Positions 29,607-42,757 of a DNA stretch of 64,000 nt are shown here, in pieces. The DNA is taken from contig JAGCPD010000002.1 in the NCBI GenBank assembly GCA_017645305.1, positions 71,104 to 135,103 on the forward strand, written 5' to 3'. A program made the position numbers and the translations under genes. This stretch comes from Bacteroidaceae bacterium (GTDB taxonomy: Bacteria; Bacteroidota; Bacteroidia; Bacteroidales; Bacteroidaceae). The notes under the pieces are model-generated. The model was not told the DNA's origin. It was given only the letters and a program-made list of their open reading frames with translations, and did not search any database. Each line of letters starts with the position of its first letter. Position 1 is the stretch's first letter.

Positions 29607-31229
29607 ATGATGAAGAATAACAGTATCCTTTTACTTTCGTTACTTTGGACATGGATGCCCGCTACTGCACAGAAGTACAAAATACCCGTATCGGAACAAC
29701 ACGAGCAGATGCAGACAGGCAAGTACGAACCTACGTGGGAATCATTAGAGACTCACCAGACACCGGAATGGTTCCGCGATGCCAAGTTCGGCATCTGGGC
29801 TCACTGGGGACCACAGTGTGTGGAAGGTTCGGGTGACTGGATGGCCCGCTCCCTTTATATGGAGGGCAGCCCGGAGTATAAATGGCACGTTGAACATTAC
29901 GGACATCCATCGGAGGTGGGTTTCAAGGACATCCTGCCACAGTTCAAAGCCGAACGCTGGGAACCCGAGAAACTGGTGGAACGATATAAACGGTGCGGTG
30001 CACAGTATTTCTTTGTTCTGGGTAACCATCATGACAATTACGACCTGTGGGACTCCAAGTATCAGCCGTGGAACTCTAAGAACATCGGTCCGCACAAAGA
30101 CATTCTGGACGAATGGGCTAAGGCTGCAAAGAAAGCCGGACTGCCGCTGGGCATCTCGTTCCATGCCGACCATGCCTGGACGTGGTACGAGCCTTCGCAG
30201 CGCTACGACCTGCAGGGCGAAAAGGCCGGCATCTGGTACGACGGGAACCTGACAAAGGAGGACGGCAAAGGCAAATGGTGGGAAGGGCTGGACCCGCAGA
30301 TGCTTTATCAGCAGAATCACCCCATGAGCCAGGGCTCGTGGGACAACGGTCGCATCCATGCACAGTGGGGATGGGAGAATGGAGCCTGTCAGCCTTCACA
30401 GCAATTCGTCACAAACTTCTACGACCGTACCCTTGATGCCATCAATCGCTATCAGCCCGACCTTATCTACTTTGACGTAACAGTACTGCCCTTCTACCCG
30501 CTAAGCGACTGCGGACTGCGCATAGCTGCACATCTTTATAACAAGAATCCTCGCGGCGTGGTGTTCGGCAAGATTCTCAGCGACGACCAACGTAAGGCGC
30601 TGACATGGGATGTGGAGCGCGGGGCACCAAACGAGATTATCCCCATTCCCTGGCAAACCTGCAACTGCATAGGCGGCTGGCACTACAACACCAGCATCTA
30701 CGAGCACGGCTATTACAAGTCGGCTGCCACCGTAGTAAAACAACTGGTGGATATTGTATCTAAGAACGGAAACCTGCTCCTGAGCATTCCCCTGCGCGCT
30801 GACGGCACTTACGACGAGAAGGAATCAAAGATACTGGATGACCTGGAAGCGTGGATGACGCAGAATGGCGAAAGCATTTTCGGCACCCGTCCGTGGATGA
30901 AGTTCGGCGAAGGACCTGTGGCTGAGAAGGACATCAAAATCAATGCCCAGGGCTTTAACGAAGGGCAGTTCTCTGCCATGGACTCCAGGGACATTCGTTT
31001 TAACCAGACAAAGCAGTATCTGTACGCCACCGCAATGGGATGGCCGTCAGACAACAGGCTGGTCATAAAATCCTTGGCCAAGGACAACAATTACTTCAAG
31101 AAGCGCATCAGCAGCGTACGGCTTCTGGGCTACGGCAAACTGAAGGTTCGCCAGACAGAAGAAGGACTTGAAGTAGAGCTGCCAAAGCCAGTAAATCAGA
31201 TTGCCCCCGTGCTGAGAATCGATAAATAA
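29607..31229 (+). CDS. Alpha-L-fucosidase (GH29)
   Basis: Signal peptide, then GH29-like wording ..EWFRDAKFGIWAHWGPQ.. and ..FVLGNHHDNYDLWDSKY... Confidence 0.85.
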   Translation: MMKNNSILLLSLLWTWMPATAQKYKIPVSEQHEQMQTGKYEPTWESLETHQTPEWFRDAKFGIWAHWGPQCVEGSGDWMARSLYMEGSPEYKWHVEHYGHPSEVGFKDILPQFKAERWEPEKLVERYKRCGAQYFFVLGNHHDNYDLWDSKYQPWNSKNIGPHKDILDEWAKAAKKAGLPLGISFHADHAWTWYEPSQRYDLQGEKAGIWYDGNLTKEDGKGKWWEGLDPQMLYQQNHPMSQGSWDNGRIHAQWGWENGACQPSQQFVTNFYDRTLDAINRYQPDLIYFDVTVLPFYPLSDCGLRIAAHLYNKNPRGVVFGKILSDDQRKALTWDVERGAPNEIIPIPWQTCNCIGGWHYNTSIYEHGYYKSAATVVKQLVDIVSKNGNLLLSIPLRADGTYDEKESKILDDLEAWMTQNGESIFGTRPWMKFGEGPVAEKDIKINAQGFNEGQFSAMDSRDIRFNQTKQYLYATAMGWPSDNRLVIKSLAKDNNYFKKRISSVRLLGYGKLKVRQTEEGLEVELPKPVNQIAPVLRIDK

Positions 31230-31235
31230 TCCGTT

Positions 31236-31448
31236 AACGATTAGCGGTTAGCGAAGTTTAACCAAAACGATAACCAAAACGAAAACCGTTTTAGACTTTA
31301 GGCGTTAGACTTTAGACTTTAGTAACGAGAACGAAAATTATTTTGGGTTAGTGGTTAGCGGTTAGCGAAATAATTGTTCATTGTTAATTGTTCATTGTTA
31401 ATTGTTCATTATTAATTGTTCATTATTAATTGTTCATTATTAATTGTT
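31236..31448. repeat. Largest mosaic array: GGTTAGC, AACCAAAACGAT, AGACTTT units and (TTGTTCATTGTTAA/TTGTTCATTATTAA)x5
   Basis: Read directly. It fills the whole 226-nt gap between 31229 and 31456. Confidence 0.95.
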
Positions 31449-31455
31449 TTAAAAA

Positions 31456-32310
31456 ATGATCAAAGAATATCTGGTACTGAGCCGATGCAACGGAACCACC
31501 CGAACAGGCTCGCCGTATGCAGTACTTAAAGTTGCCAACCTGATAGAGACAATAAACATCTCAGTGTGGGACCTGCAGCCCACGGCAGAGCCCAAAGTCG
31601 GGCAACTGGTAAGTTTCTATGCCATAAAAGACAATGCAGGAAAGAAATCCTGCTCCGTAACCGACATGAAGCCCGGGCTGATGCCGCTGTTGGACCACCC
31701 CCTGTATAATCTGCTCCCCCGCCCTATTCGCAGGGATGTGTGGGACAATACCATAAACGCACTTGTTGCCTTCTGCTCAGACCAAAGCCTCATCCCCATT
31801 ATCCGCGATTTTGCCGACAAGCTATACGCTCCTTATAGCAAATATCCGGCAGCTACCAGCGTACATCACGCTTTCCCCGGCGGTCTCACAAACCACACCT
31901 ACCAGATGCTGCACATGCTGGAAGGCCTGTACCCTTGCCTGCCCTATGAGATAAAGATAGAACGCTGCATACTGGCCATCCTGTTCCATGACTACGGAAA
32001 AGTCTATGAGTACAATACGGAAGGTGAATCGCAGGCCGACATGTACCTGCTGGGACACATCTTTATCAGCGCACATAAGTTGCAGAACGTACTGGAGCAG
32101 CAGGGTATTGACAACGAGGAAATCAAGCGCATCATACACATTGTACTGGCTCATCACGGGACACGGGAGTTCGGCAGCCCCGTTCTACCCTGTACTCAGG
32201 AAGCCGTCATTGTAAATATGCTTGACAATCTGAGTGCCAAGACAGATGCCATAGAGGGTACGGGAGATATGGAAGCGTGCTCCCCCTTAGGAACCCGTAT
32301 AGTTAAGTAA
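31456..32310 (+). CDS. OB-fold plus HD-domain phosphohydrolase (YhaM-like 3'-5' exonuclease architecture)
   Basis: The N-terminal ~80 aa look OB-like. HD-domain residues are ..HHAFPGGL..HT.. and ..LFHDYGK.. ..LAHHG... Confidence 0.65.
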   Translation: MIKEYLVLSRCNGTTRTGSPYAVLKVANLIETINISVWDLQPTAEPKVGQLVSFYAIKDNAGKKSCSVTDMKPGLMPLLDHPLYNLLPRPIRRDVWDNTINALVAFCSDQSLIPIIRDFADKLYAPYSKYPAATSVHHAFPGGLTNHTYQMLHMLEGLYPCLPYEIKIERCILAILFHDYGKVYEYNTEGESQADMYLLGHIFISAHKLQNVLEQQGIDNEEIKRIIHIVLAHHGTREFGSPVLPCTQEAVIVNMLDNLSAKTDAIEGTGDMEACSPLGTRIVK

Positions 32311-32335
32311 CCAAGGTTTAATCACTAAATTACCT

Positions 32336-34426
32336 ATGAAACGATTTTCCTTACTGTTTGCGGCCATTACCTGCGCCGCTATGACATGGGCAGATGTAAC
32401 GCTGCCCGGATGGATGACCGCCAACATGGTCCTACAGCAGAGAACCAAAGTTCACCTACAGGCTACAGCCAAGAAAGGTGCCACCGTGAAGATTACCACT
32501 TCATGGGACAAGAATACCACGAAGGTGGTGGCAGACAAGGAGACGGGAGCCTTTGAGTTCGACCTTCAAGTGCCCTCTGCAGGAGGACCCTACACGCTGA
32601 CTTTCGACGATGGTAAGAAGCTCGTCCTTGAGAATGTGATGGCTGGTGAGGTATGGTTCTGTAGCGGTCAGTCCAACATGGAGATGCCCGTCAAGGGATG
32701 GGGAATGGTGAACAACTACGAACAGGAAGTGGCCAATGCCAAACACCCTATGGTCCGTCTGTTCCAAGTGGAGCGTGTGGTGGCTCACACCCCTCAGACC
32801 AAGGTGCCTCTGGGCTATACTAAAGGCTGGGTAGAATGTTCGCCCGAGACGGTGGGTGAGTTTTCCGCTGCCGCTTATTTCTTTGCTCGCGAGGTGTCAC
32901 AGAAGTTAGGCATCGCCATAGGTGTTGTCAACAGTTCATGGGGTGGCACTCCTGCTGAGAGTTGGGTCAGTCTGGATAAGTTGCAGGGCGTGATAGGATT
33001 TCAGGAGCACGCCAAGAGAGCTTTTGCTACTGGCTTTGATGAAAAGAAGTTAAACCAGCTCTATCAGGACGAACGTGCCGAATGGATGCAGGAAGTCTAT
33101 AATAGCGACCAAGGGCTTGAGAAAGGGAATATCGACAAAGCACTATGGGCTGCCATAGACTATAACGATAGCGGTTGGGAACAAATAACTGAGCCCGCTC
33201 TTTGGAAAAAGGACAATGTTCTGAAGGACTTCGACGGCATTGTATGGATGCGTCATACAGTGGAGATTCCTGCATCGATAGCCGGTAAGGACCTGAAGTT
33301 GAATCTTGGTGCCATCGACGACGAAGACATTACCTATTGGAACGGACAGCGCGTAGGGATGACATCTGGTTGGAATGCGGGTCGTAGCTATACCGTGCCA
33401 GGCAACCTGGTAAAGGCCGGCAAGAATGTAATTACCATTCGTATCAACGATACAGGCGGAGACGGTGGCTTCTACATTGAGGGGAAGGATTTCAATGCAA
33501 AGGCAGATGCCACAAGCATTTCTCTTGCCGGCAACTGGAGTTGGAAGGCGAGTATGGATGCTGCCAGCATAAAAAAGCCCGCGAATATGACAGAACCCAT
33601 AGCACCCAATAGCTCATGGTATCCTGCCGGTCTGTACAACAGCATGGTGGCTCCGTTCCTGACGATGCCTGTCCGTGGTTTCCTGTGGTATCAGGGTTGT
33701 TCCAACGTGGGACGTGCCGTGCAATACGAGAGCCTCTTCCAGGCATTGATACTGGACTGGCAGGCTCGCTTCAACAAGAACTCCGAGGTGGCTCCCTACC
33801 CCAAGCCAGAGCCTCAGGACAACCGTCGCAGATGGATGCAGCCCACAGAATCCAAAGCACTACCCTTCTATTTTGTTCAGTTGGCCAACTATCTTCAGCG
33901 CAAAGACCTGCAGCCTCAGTCTGGCTGGGCTGCACTACGCGATGTCCAGCGCAAGGCACAGAAGCTGGATGGCGTAGGTATGATGGTGAATATTGACATC
34001 GGTATGGCAAACGACATCCATCCCAAGAACAAGCAAGAGGTGGGAAGGCGTCTGGCACTATTGGCTTTGAATCGTACATACGGACGCGAGGAGCCTTGCA
34101 GCGCCCCTGAGTACATGCAGATGCAAGTCAGCGACGGTAAGGCACGTCTCTCCTTCCTGCCCGGCTTTGGCAACGATATGTTAGCGGAGAACACAGACAT
34201 CAAGGGCTTCTCTGTTGCCGGTCCCGATCACCAGTGGCATGTGGCAAAAGCCCATACCGAAGGTAACGGCCAGTTCGTATGGCGTGTAGTAGTGGAGTGC
34301 CCCGAAGTGCCGCATCCTGTGGCTGTTCGCTATGCATGGGCAGACAATCCCGAGTGTAACCTCAAGACCGTTTCCGGACTGCCTGTGGGACCTTTCCGCA
34401 CCGACGACTGGGATGACATAAAGTAA
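32336..34426 (+). CDS. Sialate O-acetylesterase family (SGNH/SASA) protein
   Basis: Signal peptide, with the catalytic block WFCSGQSNME. Confidence 0.8.
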   Translation: MKRFSLLFAAITCAAMTWADVTLPGWMTANMVLQQRTKVHLQATAKKGATVKITTSWDKNTTKVVADKETGAFEFDLQVPSAGGPYTLTFDDGKKLVLENVMAGEVWFCSGQSNMEMPVKGWGMVNNYEQEVANAKHPMVRLFQVERVVAHTPQTKVPLGYTKGWVECSPETVGEFSAAAYFFAREVSQKLGIAIGVVNSSWGGTPAESWVSLDKLQGVIGFQEHAKRAFATGFDEKKLNQLYQDERAEWMQEVYNSDQGLEKGNIDKALWAAIDYNDSGWEQITEPALWKKDNVLKDFDGIVWMRHTVEIPASIAGKDLKLNLGAIDDEDITYWNGQRVGMTSGWNAGRSYTVPGNLVKAGKNVITIRINDTGGDGGFYIEGKDFNAKADATSISLAGNWSWKASMDAASIKKPANMTEPIAPNSSWYPAGLYNSMVAPFLTMPVRGFLWYQGCSNVGRAVQYESLFQALILDWQARFNKNSEVAPYPKPEPQDNRRRWMQPTESKALPFYFVQLANYLQRKDLQPQSGWAALRDVQRKAQKLDGVGMMVNIDIGMANDIHPKNKQEVGRRLALLALNRTYGREEPCSAPEYMQMQVSDGKARLSFLPGFGNDMLAENTDIKGFSVAGPDHQWHVAKAHTEGNGQFVWRVVVECPEVPHPVAVRYAWADNPECNLKTVSGLPVGPFRTDDWDDIK

Positions 34427-34443
34427 TTGAGGATTATAAAAAA

Positions 34444-34472
34444 GAGGCAGACTTGAAATCCAAGTCTGCCTC
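34444..34472. terminator. Strong hairpin, T-tract on the minus strand
   Basis: 12-bp stem GAGGCAGACTTG / CAAGTCTGCCTC with a 5-nt loop. It is preceded on the plus strand by A7, which is T7 after the hairpin on the minus strand. A second 8-bp hairpin lies at 34473-34503. Confidence 0.65.
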
Positions 34473-34543
34473 GTAGAGGCCGGCTCCCGAAAGCAGCCTC
34501 TACAGGGTTTTCAAGGCATCCGTGCAGAGCCCCGAGTCGCTAT

Positions 34544-34647
34544 ATTTTCCCAATTTTCTACTCAATTCCGAGCTAAAAATTCACAAGGGGAGAAACTTTT
34601 TTTTGGCAAAAAAAGAGGAAATCTGTCGAGAAACGCCTGTCAAATCA
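34544..34647 (+). repeat. Direct repeat copy A (~100 bp) flanking the ATPase gene
   Basis: attttcccaattttctactcaattCcgagctaaaaattcacaagGggagaaac(t)n ggcaaaaa..gaggaaatCtgtcgagaa...caaatca aligns with 36105-36204, with a handful of mismatches and indels. Confidence 0.9.
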
Positions 34648-34700
34648 CGGGGTGCGTAAAGGTCAAAGGGCTTGCGGTAATGGTTTATTGGCACTCTGTT

Positions 34701-35957
34701 CTATTCCAGAAGCCATTTCCACGCAGGAATAACTTCGATGGCACTATTCTCAAGCCTGATGGTTTCTTCCTCATCAAAGGTTACAATAACCATACGTTTC
34801 AACGGATGAAGGGCGTGCAGTTTCCTTAATCCCTCAATCTCACGTCTTCTGGTTTCCTCATCATTGATGGAGTATGAGACCTGCACGGCATACCCTTCTT
34901 CTGCAACGAAGAAATCCACCTCCACGTTCTTATGATAGAAATATAGTCCCTCTCCATATTTCGAATAAAGGTGTACGGCACACAAATTCTCTAAAAGCGC
35001 CGTCTCGCCATCTGTCAAGAAAATACTCAGCAGACCGTTATCCATGAAATAATGCTTCTTGACTGTTTCTTTCTCAACGAATTTCGAGGCATAGTTTTCC
35101 AGAGGAAATAGGATACAAGCCTCTTTGGCATAACGTACATAATCAATGACTGATGCCACCGAAGTACTTACGCCTGTTCCCTTCACCAAATTACAAACTC
35201 TATTATAGGATGTAGGCTGCATCACATTGTCCGCCAGACGTTTTATGGTCAGACGGAGAGCCATTTCGTTTTTCACCTTGTTACGCTGAATCACATCACC
35301 AAGCAGGATTTTCTCGTAGAGATCATTGAGCCAGTGACGCTTGTTCCGGTAAAGCAATAACTCTGGGAATCCACCCCACTTCAGATATTCAGCAAAAGCC
35401 TGCTGAACTTTAGAACGCGATTTCCCAAACTGCCATTCCTTTGTCAATCGGACACCTTGAGCCTCAAGATATTCTATAAACGAATAGGGATATACCTTTA
35501 CGTCCATATATCTGCCCCCAAGCGTAGTCTGTATATCCCTGCTCAGCATTTTGGCATTGCTACCAGTGATAAATACCTGATATTTCTGATTAGCGAGCCG
35601 ACGGGCAAAATGTTCCCATCCCTCCACATTCTGTATTTCATCAAAAAAGAGAATAGGCTTATAACTGTAAACGGAACTATGGGCTTGCAAAATCAAATCG
35701 AATTCACCGGCCGTCATTCCCAACAGACGCTCATCATCGAAATCAATATATACTATTTCTTCCGGTTGGTGTCCATTGGCCAATAGTTGTTTGGCTCGTT
35801 TGTAGAGCATATAGCTTTTCCCTGCCTGCCTAACGCCAACAAGCACATATCGTCCATTCCCCTCAAATTCGAAACGACGATCATAGAGTTCCACTTCTCT
35901 AATAATCTCCTGGCCTTCCCTGATGAGCGTTCTGAAAGTTTCCTTAGTAATAGCCAT
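34701..35957 (-). CDS. AAA+ ATPase of the AAA_14/DUF4143 family
   Basis: 418 aa with Walker A GVRQAGKS and Walker B-like LFFDEIQ. The C-terminal half fits DUF4143-type proteins. Confidence 0.8.
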   Translation of the reverse strand: MAITKETFRTLIREGQEIIREVELYDRRFEFEGNGRYVLVGVRQAGKSYMLYKRAKQLLANGHQPEEIVYIDFDDERLLGMTAGEFDLILQAHSSVYSYKPILFFDEIQNVEGWEHFARRLANQKYQVFITGSNAKMLSRDIQTTLGGRYMDVKVYPYSFIEYLEAQGVRLTKEWQFGKSRSKVQQAFAEYLKWGGFPELLLYRNKRHWLNDLYEKILLGDVIQRNKVKNEMALRLTIKRLADNVMQPTSYNRVCNLVKGTGVSTSVASVIDYVRYAKEACILFPLENYASKFVEKETVKKHYFMDNGLLSIFLTDGETALLENLCAVHLYSKYGEGLYFYHKNVEVDFFVAEEGYAVQVSYSINDEETRRREIEGLRKLHALHPLKRMVIVTFDEEETIRLENSAIEVIPAWKWLLE

Positions 35958-35977
35958 ATTCTTCTTTTATTTTGCTG

Positions 35978-36008
35978 CAAATATACGATTTTATTCAACG
36001 CTACCAAA
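35978..36008 (-). promoter_or_regulatory. Promoter of the ATPase gene
   Basis: The minus strand reads TTTG (36008-05), a 19-nt spacer, then TATATTTG (35985-78), 20 nt upstream of the ATG. Confidence 0.5.
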
Positions 36009-36104
36009 CAAAATTCAAAGATTTTATTCAGTATCACTAAACAAATACATCAAAAACAAGGATTTTCTTGTAACATTTACGGCTCCACAATGGGCGGTAC
36101 GAAA

Positions 36105-36204
36105 ATTTTCCCAATTTTCTACTCAATTACGAGCTAAAAATTCACAAGAGGAGAAACTTTTTTTGGCAAAAAGAGGAAATGTGTCGAGAACTCCCGCCAA
36201 ATCA
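36105..36204 (+). repeat. Direct repeat copy B
   Basis: See copy A. It has the same orientation and lies 1561 bp away. Confidence 0.9.
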
Positions 36205-36257
36205 TTATTTCTATAATCAGTCTTTTCAATCTTGACCCCATAGAAAACTCGACACTC

Positions 36258-38993
36258 TCAGGGATTGGGAATCATCACCTTGCGTGTACCTTCTTTTGTC
36301 CTTAGTATGCTTATTCCGCGCAGGGGTTCTGCACGCAGTATGCCATTGATGGAATAGATTCCCGTAGTTCTGCATAAGGCTTCCTCGCTAACAGAAGGCC
36401 TCCTAAGGCTTGTAGTACCATCACCTACGGTAAAAGCCGGGCCATTGGTGAACACAGAACCATTGTAGGCGGCATCCACCGTCTGAACACCCCAATGGTA
36501 AGTACCTGACGTACCAGGATGAAAAGTCCAGTGGCGGATGCTGCCCACACGTCCCATGCGGTTTACCTTGCGAATTCCGTCATGGTCACCGCCCACAAAG
36601 GCAGGCGTGCTGTTCAGCAGATTTCCCACGCTGTCTGTGATAAAGACCTCGTAGGTGCAGTTCGGAAGAACCGTCTCAGGCACATCCCACTGTAGCAACA
36701 CGGCGTCATCCTGCACAATAGCTGTAGGATTGAGCGGAGCATCAGGGCGGGAAGGCGTAGGATAAAGGTTATAACACAACACGCGGGCACTACCCCGCTG
36801 GGCTTCGGTAAGATAATTGGCATCATTACAAAAGCCGTTCACAAAGAAATCCTTGCGCCCGTCGCTATCCCAATCGGGAAAAATGATGCTAGGAGATATG
36901 GCACCTGGGATGGTGCAGTACTTAGAAAGTCGACCTGCCCGCGCTCCTGTTGTATTCAAGTAAAGGTGCCCCTCACTGTCCTTACTGCCTTTTTTCATGC
37001 CACCTATCAGCAAGTCATACGTACCGTCGCCATCCCAGTCTATCACTCCCGCTGCGTTGTTTACGCTTGTCTGTACGTTATAAAGGGTACTTGTCACATC
37101 GCCGGTAATGGCAGAAAACGTGGGGGACGGGGTTTTCTTGTTGGCATACATTCGCTGACGCAGGGCTGTTTCACCGGAAGACGAGTCGCCGTCACCAGTC
37201 AGGAAGATGTCCGCCCAACCGTCATTGGTAAAGTCAGCTACCAGCAATACACCGTTTGCCTTGCGCTTGATGGATCCTCCGTTTTCTCCCAGTCCCAGAC
37301 GGACAAAATGCCCGTGATGCAGCGTGTCGTTAAGATAGACATCCGTGAAGCGCGACCTGTCCTCCATGCCATCCACCTGTGCCGAAACAACAAAATCCTG
37401 ATATCCGTCGTTGTTCAGGTCAACGGCCTGTATCACAGCATGGCTGAAGAGATAGTCGGTCTCATAGGGTTCCACCACGAAGCGGATGCTCCCTTCGTCT
37501 ATACCCTGTTGGTGCAGCACTACGTTATAAGTGGTATTTTCCTGATGTCCCGCACATACTATGTCCAGTAGTCCGTCATTGTCAATATCAATGATGTCCG
37601 CACTGCAAGGCCCTTTAATGTCAAAAGGGTACTCGCTGCCGTCGGAATCCGTAAAAACCAGTGCCGCTTCAGTAAAGGTTCCGTCGCCCTTTCCAAGAAA
37701 AACACCTTGTCTGGAGTAGGTGTCAGCATAGGCTTCGGCACCAGGGTCGGTACCCGTCTGCTCGAATGCCACAATATCCATATTGCCGTCGTTGTTCAGG
37801 TCGCAAGGGATGAGCGAGGGCATGTCCGACACCTGAAAGGGGGAAGACTTTGATAGCGTCCAGCGATGGGTGGTGGGAAGGCAAAGCGAGACGTAGGTGA
37901 GGCGTTTCTGCGTCAGCTCTTCCGTAGCCTCGGCGTGCGTGATTTCGTCGGAAATCCCACCTGCCACAATATCCTGATACCCGTCATTGTTCAGGTCAAC
38001 GGTTGTGGCCGCGCCTTGCCGGAACCCTAACGTCTTATCTATGAGTTCGGGGTTGTAGGGATTGGCCTCCAACGTAGGGCGTATGATGGGCTCGTTAGAC
38101 ATGGTAAGTTTCGTCCCCGAAAACCTCATGGTGCCTATGTACATCAGCCGGTGGTGGACGGATTCCGTGCTGTTGTGGGCGTGGAATACAATGCGCATGA
38201 TGCCCTCCTTGTCAGTGAAGATAGAATGATGTCCCGTTCCTACCAATTCATCGCGTCGGCACAGGATGGGATTATCCGCGAACTTCGTCCAAGTGCCGCT
38301 GGCAATGTTTCGTGTGGTGGCATAGCCCACAGCATAGTTTTGACTTTCGTAGCCGTTGCCCGAGTAAGTAAGATAATAGGTATTCCTGTATTTTATTACG
38401 TTGGGGCCCTCATTCACACGCCCTTCCTTCTGTTCCCACGCCTGACTTCCGGCAATGCATTTCCTCAGCGTCCCTTCCACTGGCGTTATATAGTCGTCAG
38501 CCAAACGACATTGCCAGATGCAGATATTGTCGTTGAACCGTACAAAAAACATCCAAGCCGTTCCGTCGTCATCGAAGAAGATATGCGAGTCGATGCAGTT
38601 CTCATCGCCCAACAGGCTTTGCATCTGATAACCGCCCACCTGCTTGAATGGCCCTTTGGGACTGTCTCCTGTAGCGACAAAGAGGCGCTGGTTGGCCGAG
38701 TAGTACATGTAATACTTGTCGCCGAGGTGATATACCTCTGGTGCCCAGAAGAAAATGTTCTCCGTGGTGTTGTTTTTGTGGAGTGCCAATCCTTCGTATT
38801 TCCACGAGCGTAGGTCATCTGACGAATAGCAGCGTATGCCATTATCGTCACGCGTCCCGTAGGCATAGTACTTACCCCCATCCAGCAGGATGTAGGGGTC
38901 TGCCAATTCTATCTGGCTTTTCCCTCCCTCTGCCCATAGCGGAAGAACAGGGAGAAGAAGGATGATGAGTTTAATAAAATTTCCGTTTATCAT
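36258..38993 (-). CDS. GH43 glycoside hydrolase fused to FG-GAP/VCBS repeats and a T9SS C-terminal domain
   Basis: N-terminal GH43 wording (ELADPYILLDGGKYYAYGT, FWAPEVYH). There are repeated DLNNDGYQD / DIDNDGLLD calcium-binding FG-GAP type motifs. The C-terminal ~80 aa are CTD-like. Confidence 0.75.
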   Translation of the reverse strand: MINGNFIKLIILLLPVLPLWAEGGKSQIELADPYILLDGGKYYAYGTRDDNGIRCYSSDDLRSWKYEGLALHKNNTTENIFFWAPEVYHLGDKYYMYYSANQRLFVATGDSPKGPFKQVGGYQMQSLLGDENCIDSHIFFDDDGTAWMFFVRFNDNICIWQCRLADDYITPVEGTLRKCIAGSQAWEQKEGRVNEGPNVIKYRNTYYLTYSGNGYESQNYAVGYATTRNIASGTWTKFADNPILCRRDELVGTGHHSIFTDKEGIMRIVFHAHNSTESVHHRLMYIGTMRFSGTKLTMSNEPIIRPTLEANPYNPELIDKTLGFRQGAATTVDLNNDGYQDIVAGGISDEITHAEATEELTQKRLTYVSLCLPTTHRWTLSKSSPFQVSDMPSLIPCDLNNDGNMDIVAFEQTGTDPGAEAYADTYSRQGVFLGKGDGTFTEAALVFTDSDGSEYPFDIKGPCSADIIDIDNDGLLDIVCAGHQENTTYNVVLHQQGIDEGSIRFVVEPYETDYLFSHAVIQAVDLNNDGYQDFVVSAQVDGMEDRSRFTDVYLNDTLHHGHFVRLGLGENGGSIKRKANGVLLVADFTNDGWADIFLTGDGDSSSGETALRQRMYANKKTPSPTFSAITGDVTSTLYNVQTSVNNAAGVIDWDGDGTYDLLIGGMKKGSKDSEGHLYLNTTGARAGRLSKYCTIPGAISPSIIFPDWDSDGRKDFFVNGFCNDANYLTEAQRGSARVLCYNLYPTPSRPDAPLNPTAIVQDDAVLLQWDVPETVLPNCTYEVFITDSVGNLLNSTPAFVGGDHDGIRKVNRMGRVGSIRHWTFHPGTSGTYHWGVQTVDAAYNGSVFTNGPAFTVGDGTTSLRRPSVSEEALCRTTGIYSINGILRAEPLRGISILRTKEGTRKVMIPNP

Positions 38994-39290
38994 TGTTATT
39001 GAATTTACTATTCATGGGGCAAAGATATGGCATTACCCCCTACCTTACCATGAAAATTTGACATTTCTCCTGCACAAATTGACATTGACACGTCACCTCT
39101 CCCCAAAACACACCATTCAGATGCCTTATTAAAATCTACAGGGGTGTTCTATGGGATAATAAAAAGTTAATAGCATCCTGAGAGAAGGAAATTGAAATTT
39201 TGGGGCGTTTGCAGAAATGCGGGCATCTGTTTATGTCATTTTGTGCAGTAAAAATGTCAAGTATTCATGGATGGGGGTAGTAAAAAACCG

Positions 39291-39298
39291 TAAATTTG
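39291..39298 (+). promoter_or_regulatory. Candidate -7 box TAAATTTG
   Basis: Matches TAnnTTTG, 36 nt upstream of the ATG at 39335. There is no clear -33 element. Confidence 0.3.
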
Positions 39299-39334
39299 CA
39301 CTTAAAATCATACATTATTATCTTATTATTATTT

Positions 39335-42300
39335 ATGAAGAAAACATTTCTCTTTGCCATATTGCTCTGCGTAAGTATGACAGATTCTGCCCAACTTCTC
39401 GAAAAGTGGAACGAGGGTTCCTTTTTAAGCCGTCCCTGCACATGGTGGCACTGGCTGGATTGCAACGTTACTCGTGAAGGTATTACCGCCGACCTGGAGG
39501 CCATGAGTCGGGCTGGATACCATGAGGCTCAAATCTTTAACGTAGGATACGGCTACCCGGAAGGTACGGCCAAATATCTCTCGCACGAATGGCTCGAACT
39601 CTTCAAGTGGGCAGCCATCGAGGCAAAGCGTGTAGGCATGGAACTCTGCTTCCACAATGGGCCGGGCTGGTCCAGCAGTGGCGGATACTGGGTGAAGCCG
39701 GAACAAAGTATGCAACGCATCGTATGGACAGAAACACACCTGACCACTTCAGGCAAGAAGCAGACTATCCGTCTGGAGCAGCCTAAGGCGGAGCAAAACT
39801 GGTACAAGGATATCATCGTCCTAGCATTCCCTACTCCTTCCACTGACCTCAGAATCAGCGATTACGTACTCAAAAGCCTTGGCTCGAACAGCTATCCTAA
39901 TATTCTGATGCCCAAACCAGAGGTTGTGGAAGACGGTGCTGTAATAAAGATATCCGATATCAGGAACCTTACCAGCCAGATGGATACAGAAGGGAACCTT
40001 ACCTGGGAGGCTCCTACCGGGGAGTGGGTCATTCTGCGCATGGGACATACAACAACAGGCAAGAACAGTCATCCCACGACTGCTGCTACGGGCGGAGGAC
40101 TGGAGGTTGACAAGATGAGCCGAAAGGCTCTTGACCAGTATTGGAAGGATGGAGTCCAGCCCATTCTGGATTATCTGGGTCCGCTGGTAGGCACAGCCCT
40201 CACGAATTGCCTTGTAGATAGCTATGAGGTGGGGTGCGGCAACTGGACGGATGGTTTTGACCGGGAATTCCAACGTTTACGCGGCTATGACCCCATGTCC
40301 TACTTCCCTGCTATAGCCGGCTTTTACGTGGAAGGAAGCGAACAGAGCGAGCGTTTCCTATGGGACTTGCGCAAGACGGTGAACGACCTGATGGCAGCAA
40401 ACTATTACGACCGCTTCAGCGAACTCTGTCACCAGAATGGTCTGAAGTACTCCGTTGAACCTTATACCGGTCCCTTCAACGATATGGAAATAGGTGCCAG
40501 CTCTGACATCGTTATGGGTGAGTTCTGGATGGGAAATACAGTCATGCCCTCCTCTACCAAGATGGCGGCCTCCATTGCCCATATCAACGGAAACACGGTG
40601 GTGGGTGCTGAATCGTTCACAGCAGGCAGCAACGAGGCCGGTTGGGATGGTAGCCCTGCAAAAATGAAAACACTGGGCGACATGGCTTGGGCTGACGGCG
40701 TCAACCACTATATCTTCCACACCTTTGTCCATCAGCCAAATGACAAAGGGCCTGGTTATACTCTGGGAGAGTTCGGCTCGCATTTCAACCGGCTCAACAC
40801 ACTATGGGATGCTGCCATTCCATATATGAAATATGTCACACGTTCACAATATCTGCTACAGCAAGGACGCTTCGTTGGCGATGTGTTAGTATATGTGGGT
40901 GAGGTATCGCCCAATGATGGTAGCAGCCGTAAAGACATCAAAGACTTGGGCTACGACTACGATGAGATTTGGACCGACCAGATGGCTCAGCTACAGGTGC
41001 GCAACGGTCGCCTTGTCACTCGCAGTGGCGGTGAGTACCGTCTGCTCACGCTTTTCAACACCTCTTGGATGACACCCAAGACATTACACATCCTTCGACG
41101 GCTGGCACTTCAGGGAGCCACCATCATTGGAGTCCGTCCCACAAAATCTCCCAGTTTAGAGGGTTATCCTGTATGTGACAACGAGGTAGAACAGCTGGCC
41201 AAGGAATTGTGGGACCAGGGGCTGATTCAGGACATTACCGTTAACGATGCATTGCAGAAACTGCAGGTTAAGCCTGACTTCCACCCCAGCAGCACAGGAA
41301 GCGACCTTCACTTCATACACCGTTCCTGCCCCGAAGGGGAAATCTATTTCGTGGCTAACCCGGAAAAACAGTATCGAAACGAGACCTGTGAGTTCCGTGT
41401 TCAGAATATGGTTCCCGAGCGCTGGGATGCCCAAACGGGACAGATTACAGCCATCCCCTATCGTCAAGGTGAGTACGGTACGCTGATAGACCTGCACTTT
41501 GAGCCGGAGCAGAGCGCATTCATCATCTTCCGTCCGTCTTCTGCAGCGAATGATGCTTGTGTGACGGAGATTCACACCTCATACAATGATACCAAAGAAG
41601 TTCCCGTGCCCAATCTGAGAATCACCCGAGCCGAGTACGGAGCCTTCCTTTCACGCGGAATCAATGATGTCACGGACATCGTGTCAGGAAAAATACATGA
41701 AAACAGGCTCAACATCCAAAGCGACAATGGAACCCTCGGGGGAGATCCATGCTTCGGACAAGTTAAGACGCTGGTCATCCACTATACAATTGACGGCAAG
41801 GAGCGTACTGCCTATTCACCAGAAAACTCACGTATTCAGATACCGGAGGCTCATGAAAAGGGAGAGCTGAAAATTGCACGTGCCTTTTATGGGGCCATCG
41901 CCTCAAACTTTGACAGTCAGCGGCCACAGAAGCCCATCAATGTGGCTGATAAAATGCAAAAATCCATTGAGGAGGGCAAATATATCATTACGGCTAACGA
42001 TGAACTGGCTGGCACATCAGTCTGCGGGCAGAACAAAATGCTCCGCCTTACCTACGAGACAGATGGAATGACCATTGAACGTGACATCGAGGAAGGCGCA
42101 AAAATTGACTTCACATATCACGGCAATGATGCCACCCTGATACTAAAGGACAACAACTTTGTATGGACGACTTCCAAATCAGGAACAGAAACTGTTCGCA
42201 CCACCTCAGGTAAAGTTTATAGCGCACAAGTGAAGTCTGTTCCCCAGCCGATTACCTTGACAGGGTCTTGGGATGTTTCTTTCCAACCCGGCCGGATGGC

Positions 42301-42757
42301 TCCAGAGAAAGCCGTCTTTGACAGCCTTTACTCCTACAGCCAGTCGGACATCCACGGCATCCGCTACTATGCCGGCACCGCTGTATATTCCAAGCGCTTC
42401 ATCCTTCCCAAGAAGTACCTTCAACAAGGCACAGAATTGATACTCAATCTGGGCAGCGTGGGTGTCATTGCAGAAGTCTGTCTAAATGGGCACTCATTGG
42501 GTACAGCATGGAAAGCCCCCTACCGCCTCCCTATTGGCGATGCAGCGCAGGCAGGAGAGAATCTGTTGGAGGTAACTGTCACCAATCCGTGGGTCAACCG
42601 TCTTATCGGTGACGAACAACCAGAAGCAGAGAAACTCGGGACAGCAACATGGAAGCACTGGAACGCTGACAGTCCACTCCAGCCAGCCGGTTTGATGGGA
42701 CCTGTCACCATCCAACCCTATGTAAAAAAGGACATGACACTTGAACGTAAACGCTGA
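39335..42757 (+). CDS. Large secreted glycoside hydrolase (GH106-like / rhamnosidase-like family, tentative)
   Basis: The ORF-track frame starts at 39296. I start at MKKTFLFAILLCVSM (ATG at 39335). The N-terminal block ..WWHWLDCNVTREGITADLEAMSRAG.. recalls this family. The family assignment is from memory only. Confidence 0.55.
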   Translation: MKKTFLFAILLCVSMTDSAQLLEKWNEGSFLSRPCTWWHWLDCNVTREGITADLEAMSRAGYHEAQIFNVGYGYPEGTAKYLSHEWLELFKWAAIEAKRVGMELCFHNGPGWSSSGGYWVKPEQSMQRIVWTETHLTTSGKKQTIRLEQPKAEQNWYKDIIVLAFPTPSTDLRISDYVLKSLGSNSYPNILMPKPEVVEDGAVIKISDIRNLTSQMDTEGNLTWEAPTGEWVILRMGHTTTGKNSHPTTAATGGGLEVDKMSRKALDQYWKDGVQPILDYLGPLVGTALTNCLVDSYEVGCGNWTDGFDREFQRLRGYDPMSYFPAIAGFYVEGSEQSERFLWDLRKTVNDLMAANYYDRFSELCHQNGLKYSVEPYTGPFNDMEIGASSDIVMGEFWMGNTVMPSSTKMAASIAHINGNTVVGAESFTAGSNEAGWDGSPAKMKTLGDMAWADGVNHYIFHTFVHQPNDKGPGYTLGEFGSHFNRLNTLWDAAIPYMKYVTRSQYLLQQGRFVGDVLVYVGEVSPNDGSSRKDIKDLGYDYDEIWTDQMAQLQVRNGRLVTRSGGEYRLLTLFNTSWMTPKTLHILRRLALQGATIIGVRPTKSPSLEGYPVCDNEVEQLAKELWDQGLIQDITVNDALQKLQVKPDFHPSSTGSDLHFIHRSCPEGEIYFVANPEKQYRNETCEFRVQNMVPERWDAQTGQITAIPYRQGEYGTLIDLHFEPEQSAFIIFRPSSAANDACVTEIHTSYNDTKEVPVPNLRITRAEYGAFLSRGINDVTDIVSGKIHENRLNIQSDNGTLGGDPCFGQVKTLVIHYTIDGKERTAYSPENSRIQIPEAHEKGELKIARAFYGAIASNFDSQRPQKPINVADKMQKSIEEGKYIITANDELAGTSVCGQNKMLRLTYETDGMTIERDIEEGAKIDFTYHGNDATLILKDNNFVWTTSKSGTETVRTTSGKVYSAQVKSVPQPITLTGSWDVSFQPGRMAPEKAVFDSLYSYSQSDIHGIRYYAGTAVYSKRFILPKKYLQQGTELILNLGSVGVIAEVCLNGHSLGTAWKAPYRLPIGDAAQAGENLLEVTVTNPWVNRLIGDEQPEAEKLGTATWKHWNADSPLQPAGLMGPVTIQPYVKKDMTLERKR

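What the first reader, a model, noticed from the sequence alone, without database searches (positions are those of the whole stretch)
34544..36204. AAA+/DUF4143 ATPase gene is a self-contained cassette bracketed by ~100-bp direct repeats
Copies at 34544-34647 and 36105-36204 have the same orientation and differ only by a few substitutions and A/T-run lengths. Between them lies only the ATPase gene with its own consensus promoter (TTTG-N19-TATATTTG, 36008-35978). The strong terminator at 34444-34472 lies just outside copy A, with its T7 on the ATPase strand. The simplest reading is that the repeat was originally the 3' flank of the GH43 gene. A 1.46-kb single-gene unit then inserted into it with a ~100-bp duplication, or recombined in through this sequence. 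Recombination between the copies would cleanly excise the gene. This family pairs an AAA ATPase with a C-terminal domain that, as I recall, is proposed to have a nuclease-like fold. It is typically multi-copy and of unknown function. A mobile or defence-related role is plausible but unproven.
Basis: partly seen in the sequence, partly recalled or inferred. Interest (0 to 1): 0.65.

Follow-up and report, generated by a model that had tools for sequence, protein, structure and literature searches.

The report
Defence-candidate ATPase gene bracketed by direct repeats
A single candidate phage-defence gene in a rumen Bacteroidales chromosome sits between two copies of a 100-base sequence, arranged as if a small DNA circle had recombined into the chromosome, and related copies of the gene elsewhere show similar brackets.

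Summary
Copies at 34544-34647 and 36105-36204 are direct repeats, 90% identical, and the only two in the 64-kb window. Between them lies only a 418-aa AAA_14/DUF4143 ATPase with its own conserved promoter. The ATPase matches PADLOC's unvalidated single-gene defence candidate PDC-S01 (E 3e-96).

The repeat is not part of the gene family's conserved unit. It belongs to a low-copy family with at least four copies in this genome. One outside copy joins the segment left of copy B, the repeat, and the segment right of copy A in one piece. The window is therefore circularly permuted. That fits single-crossover (Campbell-type) integration of a circle, not a 100-bp target duplication.

Brackets recur around this gene. 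Two of seven other contexts of close homologues carry unrelated 49-nt and 63-nt direct repeats, against 2 of 485 control genes. One of these repeats is the 3' end of cysS, and a relative has the matching empty site.

No empty site, excision joint or circle was found for the window locus itself. No recombinase lies within the 64 kb.

Novelty: new variant of a known kind. Interest is moderate.

The parts
32336..34426 (+). Left flanking gene: SASA-type carbohydrate esterase, 696 aa, convergent with the ATPase.
   Evidence: Pfam SASA E 6e-13. Orthologues in 25 GTDB species share only the gene itself, not its neighbours.
34434..34472 (-). Intrinsic-terminator-like hairpin with a 13-bp stem, followed by a T-run on the minus strand. 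Single copy in the genome. It would stop transcripts coming from the ATPase, or from GH43 in an empty state.
   Evidence: The depth profile shows no extra copy.
34473..34543 (.). Segment 'X', 71 nt, with its own 8-bp-stem hairpin. A second copy lies elsewhere in the same genome, 858 nt from repeat copy C.
   Evidence: read laying pieces and loose ends.
34544..34647 (+). Direct repeat copy A ('core'), 104 nt.
34648..34700 (.). Segment 'R', between copy A and the ATPase stop codon. About 34648-34685 is shared with the intact outside copy D.
   Evidence: Contig D matches 34550-34669 at 80% or higher, and its loose end stays about 80% alike to roughly 34685.
34701..35957 (-). AAA_14 + DUF4143 ATPase, 418 aa. 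It matches PADLOC candidate defence system PDC-S01. The Walker A residues G46 and K47 are invariant. The Walker B residues D106 and E107 are conserved in at least 90% of 62 diverse relatives. D348 is invariant and Q359 nearly so, in the C-terminal nuclease-like domain.
35958..36046 (-). Conserved upstream region of the ATPase unit. It holds a Bacteroidetes-type promoter, TTTG-N19-TATATTTG (36008-35978), and two tandem 33-bp-spaced motifs, TTTGTTTRGT-N5-TGAATAAAA (35989-36012 and 36022-36045). Homology with other genomes ends at 36045/36046.
   Evidence: (D4).
36047..36104 (.). Segment 'L', between the ATPase unit and copy B. It is shared with outside copy D. Its last 9 nt, GGTACGAAA, are also shared with copy C.
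   Evidence: Joint and loose ends of the 2576-nt contig.
36105..36204 (+). Direct repeat copy B ('core'), 100 nt.
36205..36257 (.). Segment 'Y', the unique 3' flank of GH43.
   Evidence: No extra depth and no other copy.
36258..38993 (-). Right flanking gene: GH43 glycoside hydrolase with FG-GAP repeats, 911 aa.
   Evidence: Pfam. Orthologues at up to 79% aa are not next to an esterase or an ATPase.

Best explanation
The ATPase gene reached this site as part of a small circular DNA. The circle carried the promoter and gene, plus a roughly 200-bp element (L + core + R) of a low-copy repeat family. It integrated by one crossover inside the ~100-bp core, which the circle shared with a solo core already lying between the convergent esterase and GH43 genes. 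This is Campbell-type integration.

The product is X-coreA-R-[ATPase]-L-coreB-Y. The two cores are direct repeats. They need never have been identical.

The crossover enzyme is unresolved. It could be RecA acting on 50-100 bp of homology, or a site-specific recombinase encoded elsewhere. The same recombination in reverse would loop the gene out again, but in this lineage the insertion looks fixed.

The cargo is a PDC-S01-type ATPase-nuclease. It is probably a single-gene anti-phage or anti-MGE factor, and this function is inferred, not shown.

Shown: the repeat, the discrete gene unit, the circular permutation relative to copy D, the recurrence of brackets at other loci, and one empty site for a homologue. 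Inferred: the circle, the crossover and the defence role.
For: 1. Circular permutation. A 2576-nt contig (D) has the same depth as the host contig in four metagenomes: 103/91, 50/41, 13.8/15.6 and 198/209. It carries window 36046-36083, then 21 nt resembling 36084-36104, then 34550-34669, all contiguous. That is L+core+R in one piece. In the window, L and R face the gene and the cores face outward.

2. L starts exactly where homology of the ATPase unit with other genomes ends, at 36045/36046. This marks a real junction.

3. A solo core with other flanks exists (copy C). It shows what the proposed target would look like.

4. Brackets recur with unrelated sequences. L139 has a 63-nt repeat at 87% identity (score 47, z 26). 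L134 has a 49-nt repeat at 82% (score 31, z 14). A 30-nt palindromic motif brackets the gene in the NUDIX context (z 4-7). Only 2 of 485 control genes reach a score of 31 or more.

5. In L139 the repeat is the last 19 codons of cysS. Five of the six changed codons are synonymous. Relative L145 has pepC1 and cysS adjacent with a 33-nt spacer, which is the empty site.

6. The gene's composition is foreign: GC 43%, GC3 45%, against 51-53% and 56-65% in the neighbours.

7. No integrase, transposase or tRNA gene lies anywhere in the 64 kb. Any recombinase must therefore act in trans, or RecA does the job.
Against: - No empty site, no deletion joint and no circle junction was seen for this locus. 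The data are assembler contigs, which drop rare variants.
- Contigs C and D could not be read in full. Their flanks are known only from 30-nt loose ends.
- Inside the core, D is not closer to B on the left or to A on the right, as a simple crossover model predicts. The signal rests on only 2 sites each way, so it is uninformative.
- Three of eight close contexts (L033, L136, L142) and 10 of 12 distant plasmid contexts show no bracket.
- The excess of synonymous changes in L139 is not significant once selection on the functional copy is allowed for (my estimate, p about 0.13).
- Defence regions may be richer in repeats than my control genes.
Confidence: 0.5

Rival explanations
1. In-situ target duplication. 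A linear 1.46-kb fragment (R + ATPase unit + L) was joined into a staggered break about 100 bp wide in the esterase-GH43 spacer. Fill-in then duplicated the core.
For: Direct repeats of locus-specific sequence flank the same gene at several loci, and the spacers next to the gene differ between loci. This is what captured fragments would look like. The cysS repeat in L139 is clearly target-derived.
Against: Copy D has L-core-R contiguous. In-situ duplication cannot produce this unless D derives from a circle or a tandem form. No transposase and no terminal inverted repeats are present. Duplications of 50-100 bp are far outside the 2-15 bp made by known transposases (general knowledge). Copies A and B differ by 10%, yet the locus is invariant across strains.
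Confidence: 0.15
2. No cassette mobility. The 100-bp sequence is simply a low-copy dispersed intergenic module, with X as a second such module. The ATPase became flanked by two copies through ordinary rearrangement or gene conversion between dispersed repeats. The gene is a stable vertical resident.
For: There are at least 4 copies of the core and 2 of X in the genome, and two cores are not next to a similar ATPase. The element is absent near homologues in other genomes. The locus is identical in six metagenomes with no variant. Three of eight contexts have no repeats.
Against: It does not explain why both L and R face the gene. It does not explain why L begins exactly at the boundary of the conserved gene unit. 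It does not explain why unrelated brackets recur around the same gene at other loci far above background. It also leaves the foreign composition unexplained.
Confidence: 0.2
3. Self-mobilising gene. The ATPase-nuclease itself promotes insertion or homing of its own gene, and long target duplications are a by-product.
For: It is a single gene with no other mobility gene nearby. It has a nuclease-like C-terminal domain (PMC3424549). The family is very large and multi-copy: 8743 clusters at 50% identity and 10,358 loci in 6,530 rumen genomes (PMC13356809). The gene unit has sharp boundaries.
Against: The unit has no conserved terminal sequences or inverted repeats. Most contexts have no bracket. 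No activity is known for any family member. The family is classed as a defence candidate because it is found embedded in RM/BREX systems (bioRxiv 10.1101/2024.01.29.577857).
Confidence: 0.05

Closest known systems
PADLOC phage-defence candidate PDC-S01 (AAA_14 ATPase + DUF4143 / PD-(D/E)XK-like domain, COG1373)
   Same: The protein matches the PDC-S01 model over nearly its full length at E 3e-96. It has the same two Pfam domains. Homologues sit beside RM systems, GmrSD, Cas6, a zeta toxin and MNT/HepT, and one lies between hsdR and hsdM on a Treponema plasmid.
   Different: PDC-S01 is defined only by embedding and is not experimentally validated (PMC12988326). The window copy is not in a defence island: it sits between two carbohydrate-active enzyme genes. 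The papers I read describe no flanking-repeat architecture for PDC-S01.
Att-flanked integrated elements that lack their own recombinase (cis-mobilisable elements, CIMEs, left by ICEs/genomic islands; from general knowledge)
   Same: A short segment is bounded by direct repeats, one of which can be the 3' end of a housekeeping gene (cysS in L139). There is no integrase in cis. Tandem arrays separated by the same repeat occur in the NUDIX context.
   Different: The cargo here is one gene of 1.3 kb. The repeats are long (49-104 nt), diverged (82-90%) and differ at every locus. No single att core is shared, and no partner element with an integrase was identified.
Campbell-type single-crossover integration of a non-replicating circle. 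IS26 translocatable units are an analogue in which a repeat plus an adjacent gene moves as a circle (general knowledge).
   Same: The product is repeat-cargo-repeat in direct orientation. The circle junction (L-core-R) is the permuted form. Reversal by recombination between the repeats is possible.
   Different: The portable homology here is a non-coding 100-230-bp element or a piece of the target gene. It is not an IS encoding its own recombinase.
Integron gene cassettes
   Same: Single-gene units are separated by a repeated element in one orientation. Defence genes are known cargo of chromosomal integrons (general knowledge).
   Different: There are no attC core sites and no single-strand hairpin signal (z about 0). 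No IntI lies within 64 kb. The gene carries its own promoter. The repeat differs between loci.

Membership tests
PDC-S01 / AAA_14-DUF4143 ATPase family | Match to the family profile across the protein | tested here: met
   PADLOC PDLC04787 at E 3e-96 covering residues 38-418. Pfam AAA_14 at 119 bits and DUF4143 at 46 bits, both above their curated cut-offs.
PDC-S01 / AAA_14-DUF4143 ATPase family | Intact P-loop NTPase motifs (Walker A GxxxxGK[ST], Walker B hhhhDE) | tested here: met
   GVRQAGKS at residues 41-48 and FFDE at 104-107. G41, G46 and K47 are invariant and D106/E107 are at least 90% conserved in 62 diverse relatives.
PDC-S01 / AAA_14-DUF4143 ATPase family | C-terminal PD-(D/E)XK (restriction-endonuclease-like) fold with catalytic residues | tested here: inconclusive
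   The AF2 model has mean pLDDT 54.7. Only residues 330-418 are confident, with an alpha-beta-beta-beta-alpha-beta-beta-beta pattern. The fold search was meaningless. A sequence profile finds no solved relative. D348 is invariant and Q359 nearly so, but no conserved Lys follows at +2. The classification rests on PMC3424549.
PDC-S01 / AAA_14-DUF4143 ATPase family | Protection against phage or foreign DNA | not testable with these tools
   No experimental validation is reported (PMC12988326). Only neighbourhood evidence exists here.
Integrated element made by att/Campbell recombination | Direct repeats at both ends of the inserted segment | tested here: met
Integrated element made by att/Campbell recombination | Junction of the circular or unintegrated form (the inner flanks joined through one repeat copy) exists | tested here: inconclusive
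   A paralogous L-core-R junction exists in the same genome, on contig D, about 84% identical to copy A. No junction identical to the window's own L and R was seen.
Integrated element made by att/Campbell recombination | Empty site in relatives (one repeat copy joining the flanking genes) | tested here: inconclusive
   For the window locus none could be found, because relatives lack synteny and the strains carrying the locus show no joint. For the homologous cassette at cysS, the empty site pepC1|33 nt|cysS exists in L145.
Integrated element made by att/Campbell recombination | Recombinase encoded in or beside the element | tested here: not met
   No integrase, recombinase or transposase domain occurs in any ORF of 200 aa or more in the 64 kb. 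No tRNA target is present.
Transposon / insertion sequence with target-site duplication | Terminal inverted repeats and a transposase; short target-site duplication | tested here: not met
   No inverted repeats lie at the unit's boundaries. There is no transposase. The duplication is 100 nt, and the arrangement is permuted relative to copy D.
Integron gene cassette | attC site (R''/R' core sites, stable imperfect hairpin) and IntI/attI nearby | tested here: not met
   By eye I found no GTTRRRY/RYYYAAC pair in the element. Folding z-scores run from -0.27 to +0.71 on both strands. There is no Rfam hit and no integrase.
Dispersed intergenic repeat (REP/MITE-like) | Many copies per genome, with palindromic or TIR structure | tested here: not met
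   Only about 4 copies at 80% or higher identity in the host-depth contigs of four metagenomes. There are none elsewhere in the window and none in 1.6 Mb of other genomes. No structure signal was found.

The most novel reading that the evidence does not exclude
PDC-S01 ATPase genes in rumen Bacteroidales may spread as recombinase-free single-gene cassettes. The gene with its own promoter would loop out as a circle, together with a piece of whatever flanked it. It would then re-enter chromosomes by a single crossover through 50-100 bp of shared sequence. Each event would leave a locus-specific direct-repeat bracket and sometimes build short cassette arrays. If so, the 'embedding' by which PADLOC discovered these candidates would have a concrete mechanism.
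Probability: 0.2. Interest if true: 0.7.

Novelty: new variant of a known kind. Interest (0 to 1): 0.45.

Why it matters
PDC-S01 is reported as the most frequent single 'defence locus' in rumen genomes (10,358 in 6,530 genomes, PMC13356809) and the fourth most common across prokaryotes (PMC12988326). Yet neither its function nor the way it gets scattered and embedded in genomes is known.

A repeat-bracketed, promoter-carrying, single-gene unit gives a testable route for that scatter. The supporting facts are its permuted junction elsewhere in the genome, recurrent brackets at other loci, and an empty site in a relative.

The unit is also a convenient, self-contained 1.5-kb construct for testing the gene's function. 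If the bracket turns out to be only a by-product of low-copy intergenic repeats, the finding is ordinary.

Tried and rejected
1. Empty site through orthologues. 25 GTDB loci with the esterase (64-93% aa) and 79 metagenome loci with GH43 relatives (79% aa or lower, plus one N-terminal fragment at about 94%) showed no synteny with each other or with an ATPase. The test is therefore impossible, not negative.

2. Exact-pattern scans for the repeat in JGI metagenome contigs and in IMG/VR gave 0 hits.

3. Deletion or circle joints. Contigs of six runs carrying the locus show none. Only assembler contigs were available, with no raw reads and no RNA runs.

4. I could not obtain contigs C and D in full. 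Only 30-nt loose ends are visible.

5. Known RNA or structured element. There is no Rfam match in the repeat and no folding signal. The only weak hits (Xoo2/sX12-like, E 0.0085 and above) lie on the terminator hairpin and segment X, below the gathering score.

6. Phage origin. There are no ATPase relatives in viral contigs, using either one protein or a 12-protein profile.

7. Structure check of the nuclease domain. The alignment allowed for AF2 was too shallow (pLDDT 54.7) and Foldseek hits were meaningless. Profiles against PDB sequences gave only weak hits to the ORC4 P-loop and a sigma-54-type HTH.

8. Crossover point. I tried to infer it from which of copies A and B resembles D in each half of the core. 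Only 2 informative sites point each way, so I dropped this.

9. Acinetobacter pdif-module idea. It was prompted by 166 plasmid hits, but these are only 28% identical and sit beside a DUF1788 gene. I did not pursue it.
Full report
**Observation**

The two ~100-nt copies are real. 34544-34647 and 36105-36204 lie in the same orientation. They differ by 6 substitutions and 3 short indels in T/A runs, which is 90% identity. A 24-nt seed with up to 3 mismatches occurs only at these two places in 64 kb, with 0 expected by chance. blastn with short words and nhmmer find no weaker copy in the window.

The only real ORF between the copies is 34701-35957 on the minus strand. It encodes 418 aa, with AAA_14 at E 1.4e-34 and DUF4143 at E 5.6e-12. 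TTTG-N19-TATATTTG lies at 36008-35978 on the gene's strand.

**Organism and setting**

Exact copies of the ATPase and esterase occur only on rumen or bovine-gut metagenome contigs with the same gene order. The nearest genomes are rumen Bacteroidaceae/Prevotellaceae MAGs. The window is core chromosome: rpoB/rpoC, ribosomal protein L1, V-type ATPase, PEPCK, fabF, rnc, polysaccharide-synthesis genes and carbohydrate-active enzymes. No integrase, transposase or tRNA gene lies anywhere in it. The ATPase has GC 43% and GC3 45%, against 51-53% and 56-65% for its neighbours. Its composition is therefore foreign.

**The gene**

The protein matches PADLOC's PDC-S01 model at E 3e-96. PDC systems are candidates found embedded inside BREX, DISARM and type I RM systems (bioRxiv 10.1101/2024.01.29.577857). 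PDC-S01 is described as an ATPase fused to a PD-(D/E)XK-superfamily domain and is not yet validated (PMC12988326). It is the most frequent single defence locus in 6,530 rumen genomes (PMC13356809). DUF4143 is listed among PD-(D/E)XK families in PMC3424549.

Walker A is invariant across 62 diverse relatives. Walker B is at least 90% conserved. D348 is also invariant, and Q359 is nearly so. The family is very large, with 8743 clusters at 50% identity.

I could not verify the nuclease fold. AF2 on the permitted shallow alignment gave pLDDT 54.7. The fold search was meaningless. Profiles find no solved relative.

**The gene is a discrete unit**

Close homologues (76-92% aa) occur in at least eight unrelated neighbourhoods:
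- GH43/esterase (this window);
- M6 peptidase/riboflavin synthase;
- NUDIX next to a hypervariable RM region;
- M3 peptidase/Cas6;
- zeta toxin/cysS;
- a capsule locus with MNT/HepT;
- EcoRI methylase/GmrSD;
- one short contig.

In every comparison, DNA similarity runs from window 36045/36046, about 88 bp upstream of the ATG, to the stop codon, and then ends abruptly. The conserved upstream part holds the promoter and two tandem motifs, TTTGTTTRGT-N5-TGAATAAAA, spaced 33 bp apart. These motifs occur nowhere else in the window.

The 100-nt repeat is not part of this unit. It is absent from all 150 loci of other genomes, 1.6 Mb in total.

**The repeat is a low-copy family, and the window is circularly permuted**

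I laid the contigs of four metagenomes that carry the locus on copy A at 80% or higher identity. This revealed two further copies whose depth tracks the host contig. Host/C/D depths are 91/82/103, 41/41/50, 15.6/12.9/13.8 and 209/202/198.

Copy C, on contigs of 1493-3349 nt, has GGTACGAAA plus the core up to CAAATCAT, and then different flanks. A copy of segment X (34473-34544) lies 858 nt away on the same contig.

Copy D, on a 2576-nt contig, holds window 36046-36083, then 21 nt resembling 36084-36104, then 34550-34669, all contiguous. So the segment left of copy B (L), the core, and the segment right of copy A (R) form one piece in D. No ATPase of 80% or higher identity lies beside it.

The window therefore reads X-coreA-R-[ATPase unit]-L-coreB-Y, a circular permutation of L-core-R. 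Insertion with a target duplication would give L-core-insert-core-R instead. One crossover between a circle (ATPase + L-core-R) and a solo core (X-core-Y, like copy C) gives exactly what is seen. It also explains both outer boundaries of the repeat as the limits of shared homology. In addition, L begins precisely where the conserved gene unit ends.

**Brackets recur around this gene**

I aligned 450 nt upstream against 450 nt downstream of the gene in each context.

| Context | Score | z | Repeat |
|---|---|---|---|
| window | 79.5 | 51 | ~100 nt, 90% |
| L139 | 47 | 26 | 63 nt, 87% |
| L134 | 31 | 14 | 49 nt, 82% |
| NUDIX context | 19-24.5 | 4-7 | 30-nt palindromic motif |
| L143 | 17 | 3.9 | marginal |
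| L033, L136, L142 | 11.5-13.5 | ≤2.4 | none |

The repeat sequences are unrelated between loci. Among 486 genes of 250 aa or more in the window and 104 other loci, only two besides the window ATPase reach a score of 31. Two of seven independent contexts is thus far above background. By a simple binomial estimate of mine, the probability is about 3e-4. The caveat is that defence regions may be repeat-rich.

Among 12 distant family members on plasmids, two more have brackets (L147 and L152) and ten do not.

In L139 the repeat is the last 19 codons and stop of cysS. The displaced copy differs mostly at synonymous sites. This is suggestive but not significant. A relative with cysS at 94% aa (L145) has peptidase C1 and cysS separated by only a 33-nt hairpin. 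That is the empty site for the L139 insertion.

In the NUDIX context the same 30-nt motif also separates ORF6N genes and small ORFs downstream, forming short arrays.

**What was not found**

No relative has the esterase next to GH43, so the empty-site test for this locus could not be run. The six runs that hold the locus show one identical arrangement and no joint. Fragments from other studies at 98-99% identity show the same junctions. These are assembler contigs, which hide rare variants. No raw-read or RNA runs were available. The repeat matches no RNA family and has no folding signal.

**Conclusion**

The best reading, with confidence about 0.5, is a Campbell-type single-crossover insertion of a circular ATPase cassette through a ~100-bp sequence shared with the target. 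The insertion is now fixed in this lineage. The enzyme is unresolved: RecA, or a recombinase acting in trans.

The rivals are:
- an in-situ 100-bp duplication (0.15);
- a passive association with low-copy intergenic repeats (0.2);
- self-mobilisation by the ATPase-nuclease (0.05).

The gene is a member of a known candidate-defence family. The repeat-bracketed, recombinase-free, single-gene architecture and its recurrence are a new variant of known integrated-element patterns. Interest is moderate.

Noticed in passing
window 35989-36012 and 36022-36045 (minus strand): Two tandem copies, 33 bp apart, of TTTGTTTRGT-N5-TGAATAAAA sit just upstream of and overlapping the -33 region of the ATPase promoter. 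They are conserved in every close homologue in all eight contexts and occur nowhere else in the window. They look like an operator or UP-like element specific to this gene family.
   Followed up: partly
L035-L054 (e.g. L036 4801-4828, 6420-6449, 7177-7207; L042 6420, 6928, 7276; L046 6420, 7178, 7935): In the NUDIX-adjacent context, a 30-nt palindromic motif, CAGATGTCATTGACCTGTCCCGTGACATCG (up to 85 nt of similarity), recurs in one orientation. It lies before the ATPase, after it, and after each ORF6N or small ORF. This forms short cassette arrays at the edge of a hypervariable region that carries different RM systems in different samples.
   Followed up: partly
window 34473-34543, and a contig of 3136-3349 nt in runs X2/X4: Segment X, downstream of the esterase terminator, has a second copy in the same genome. 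There it is separated from repeat copy C by 858 nt that look like a small gene on the ATPase strand. X and the core thus co-occur twice, in the same order but at different spacing.
   Followed up: partly
contigs of 1199-1393 nt in runs X1/X2 (they match window 35016-35101 and 35526-35658 at about 81%): The same genome carries at least one more AAA_14/DUF4143 paralogue at host depth. It lies on a contig barely longer than the gene unit.
   Followed up: no
L139 1998-2745 versus L145: The insertion between peptidase C1 and cysS in L139 also contains a zeta-toxin gene and a 60-aa ORF upstream of the ATPase cassette. The site downstream of cysS has therefore collected two small modules.
   Followed up: partly
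L156 (Treponema saccharophilum pTS1), L147 (Acinetobacter plasmids), L149/L152/L155/L157: Distant family members (27-33% aa) occur in several notable settings. One lies between hsdR and hsdM of a type I RM system. Others are on 166 Acinetobacter plasmids; in the one inspected (L147) the gene lies 2.3 kb upstream of a DUF1788 gene and has a ~75-nt flanking repeat. Several lie directly beside tyrosine or serine recombinase genes on other plasmids.
   Followed up: partly
L008-L032 versus window 29607-42757: The fucosidase-HD-esterase-GH43-GH106 cluster of the window is not conserved in any of 25 related species. Even the closest esterase (93% aa, L028) has entirely different neighbours on both sides.
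   Followed up: partly
L096 2296-6777 and L017 1424-2512: In the control set, two other genes are flanked by direct repeats. One is a 1493-aa FG-GAP/T9SS-tail protein (score 129). The other is an LptF/LptG permease (score 35). I did not examine them further.
   Followed up: no
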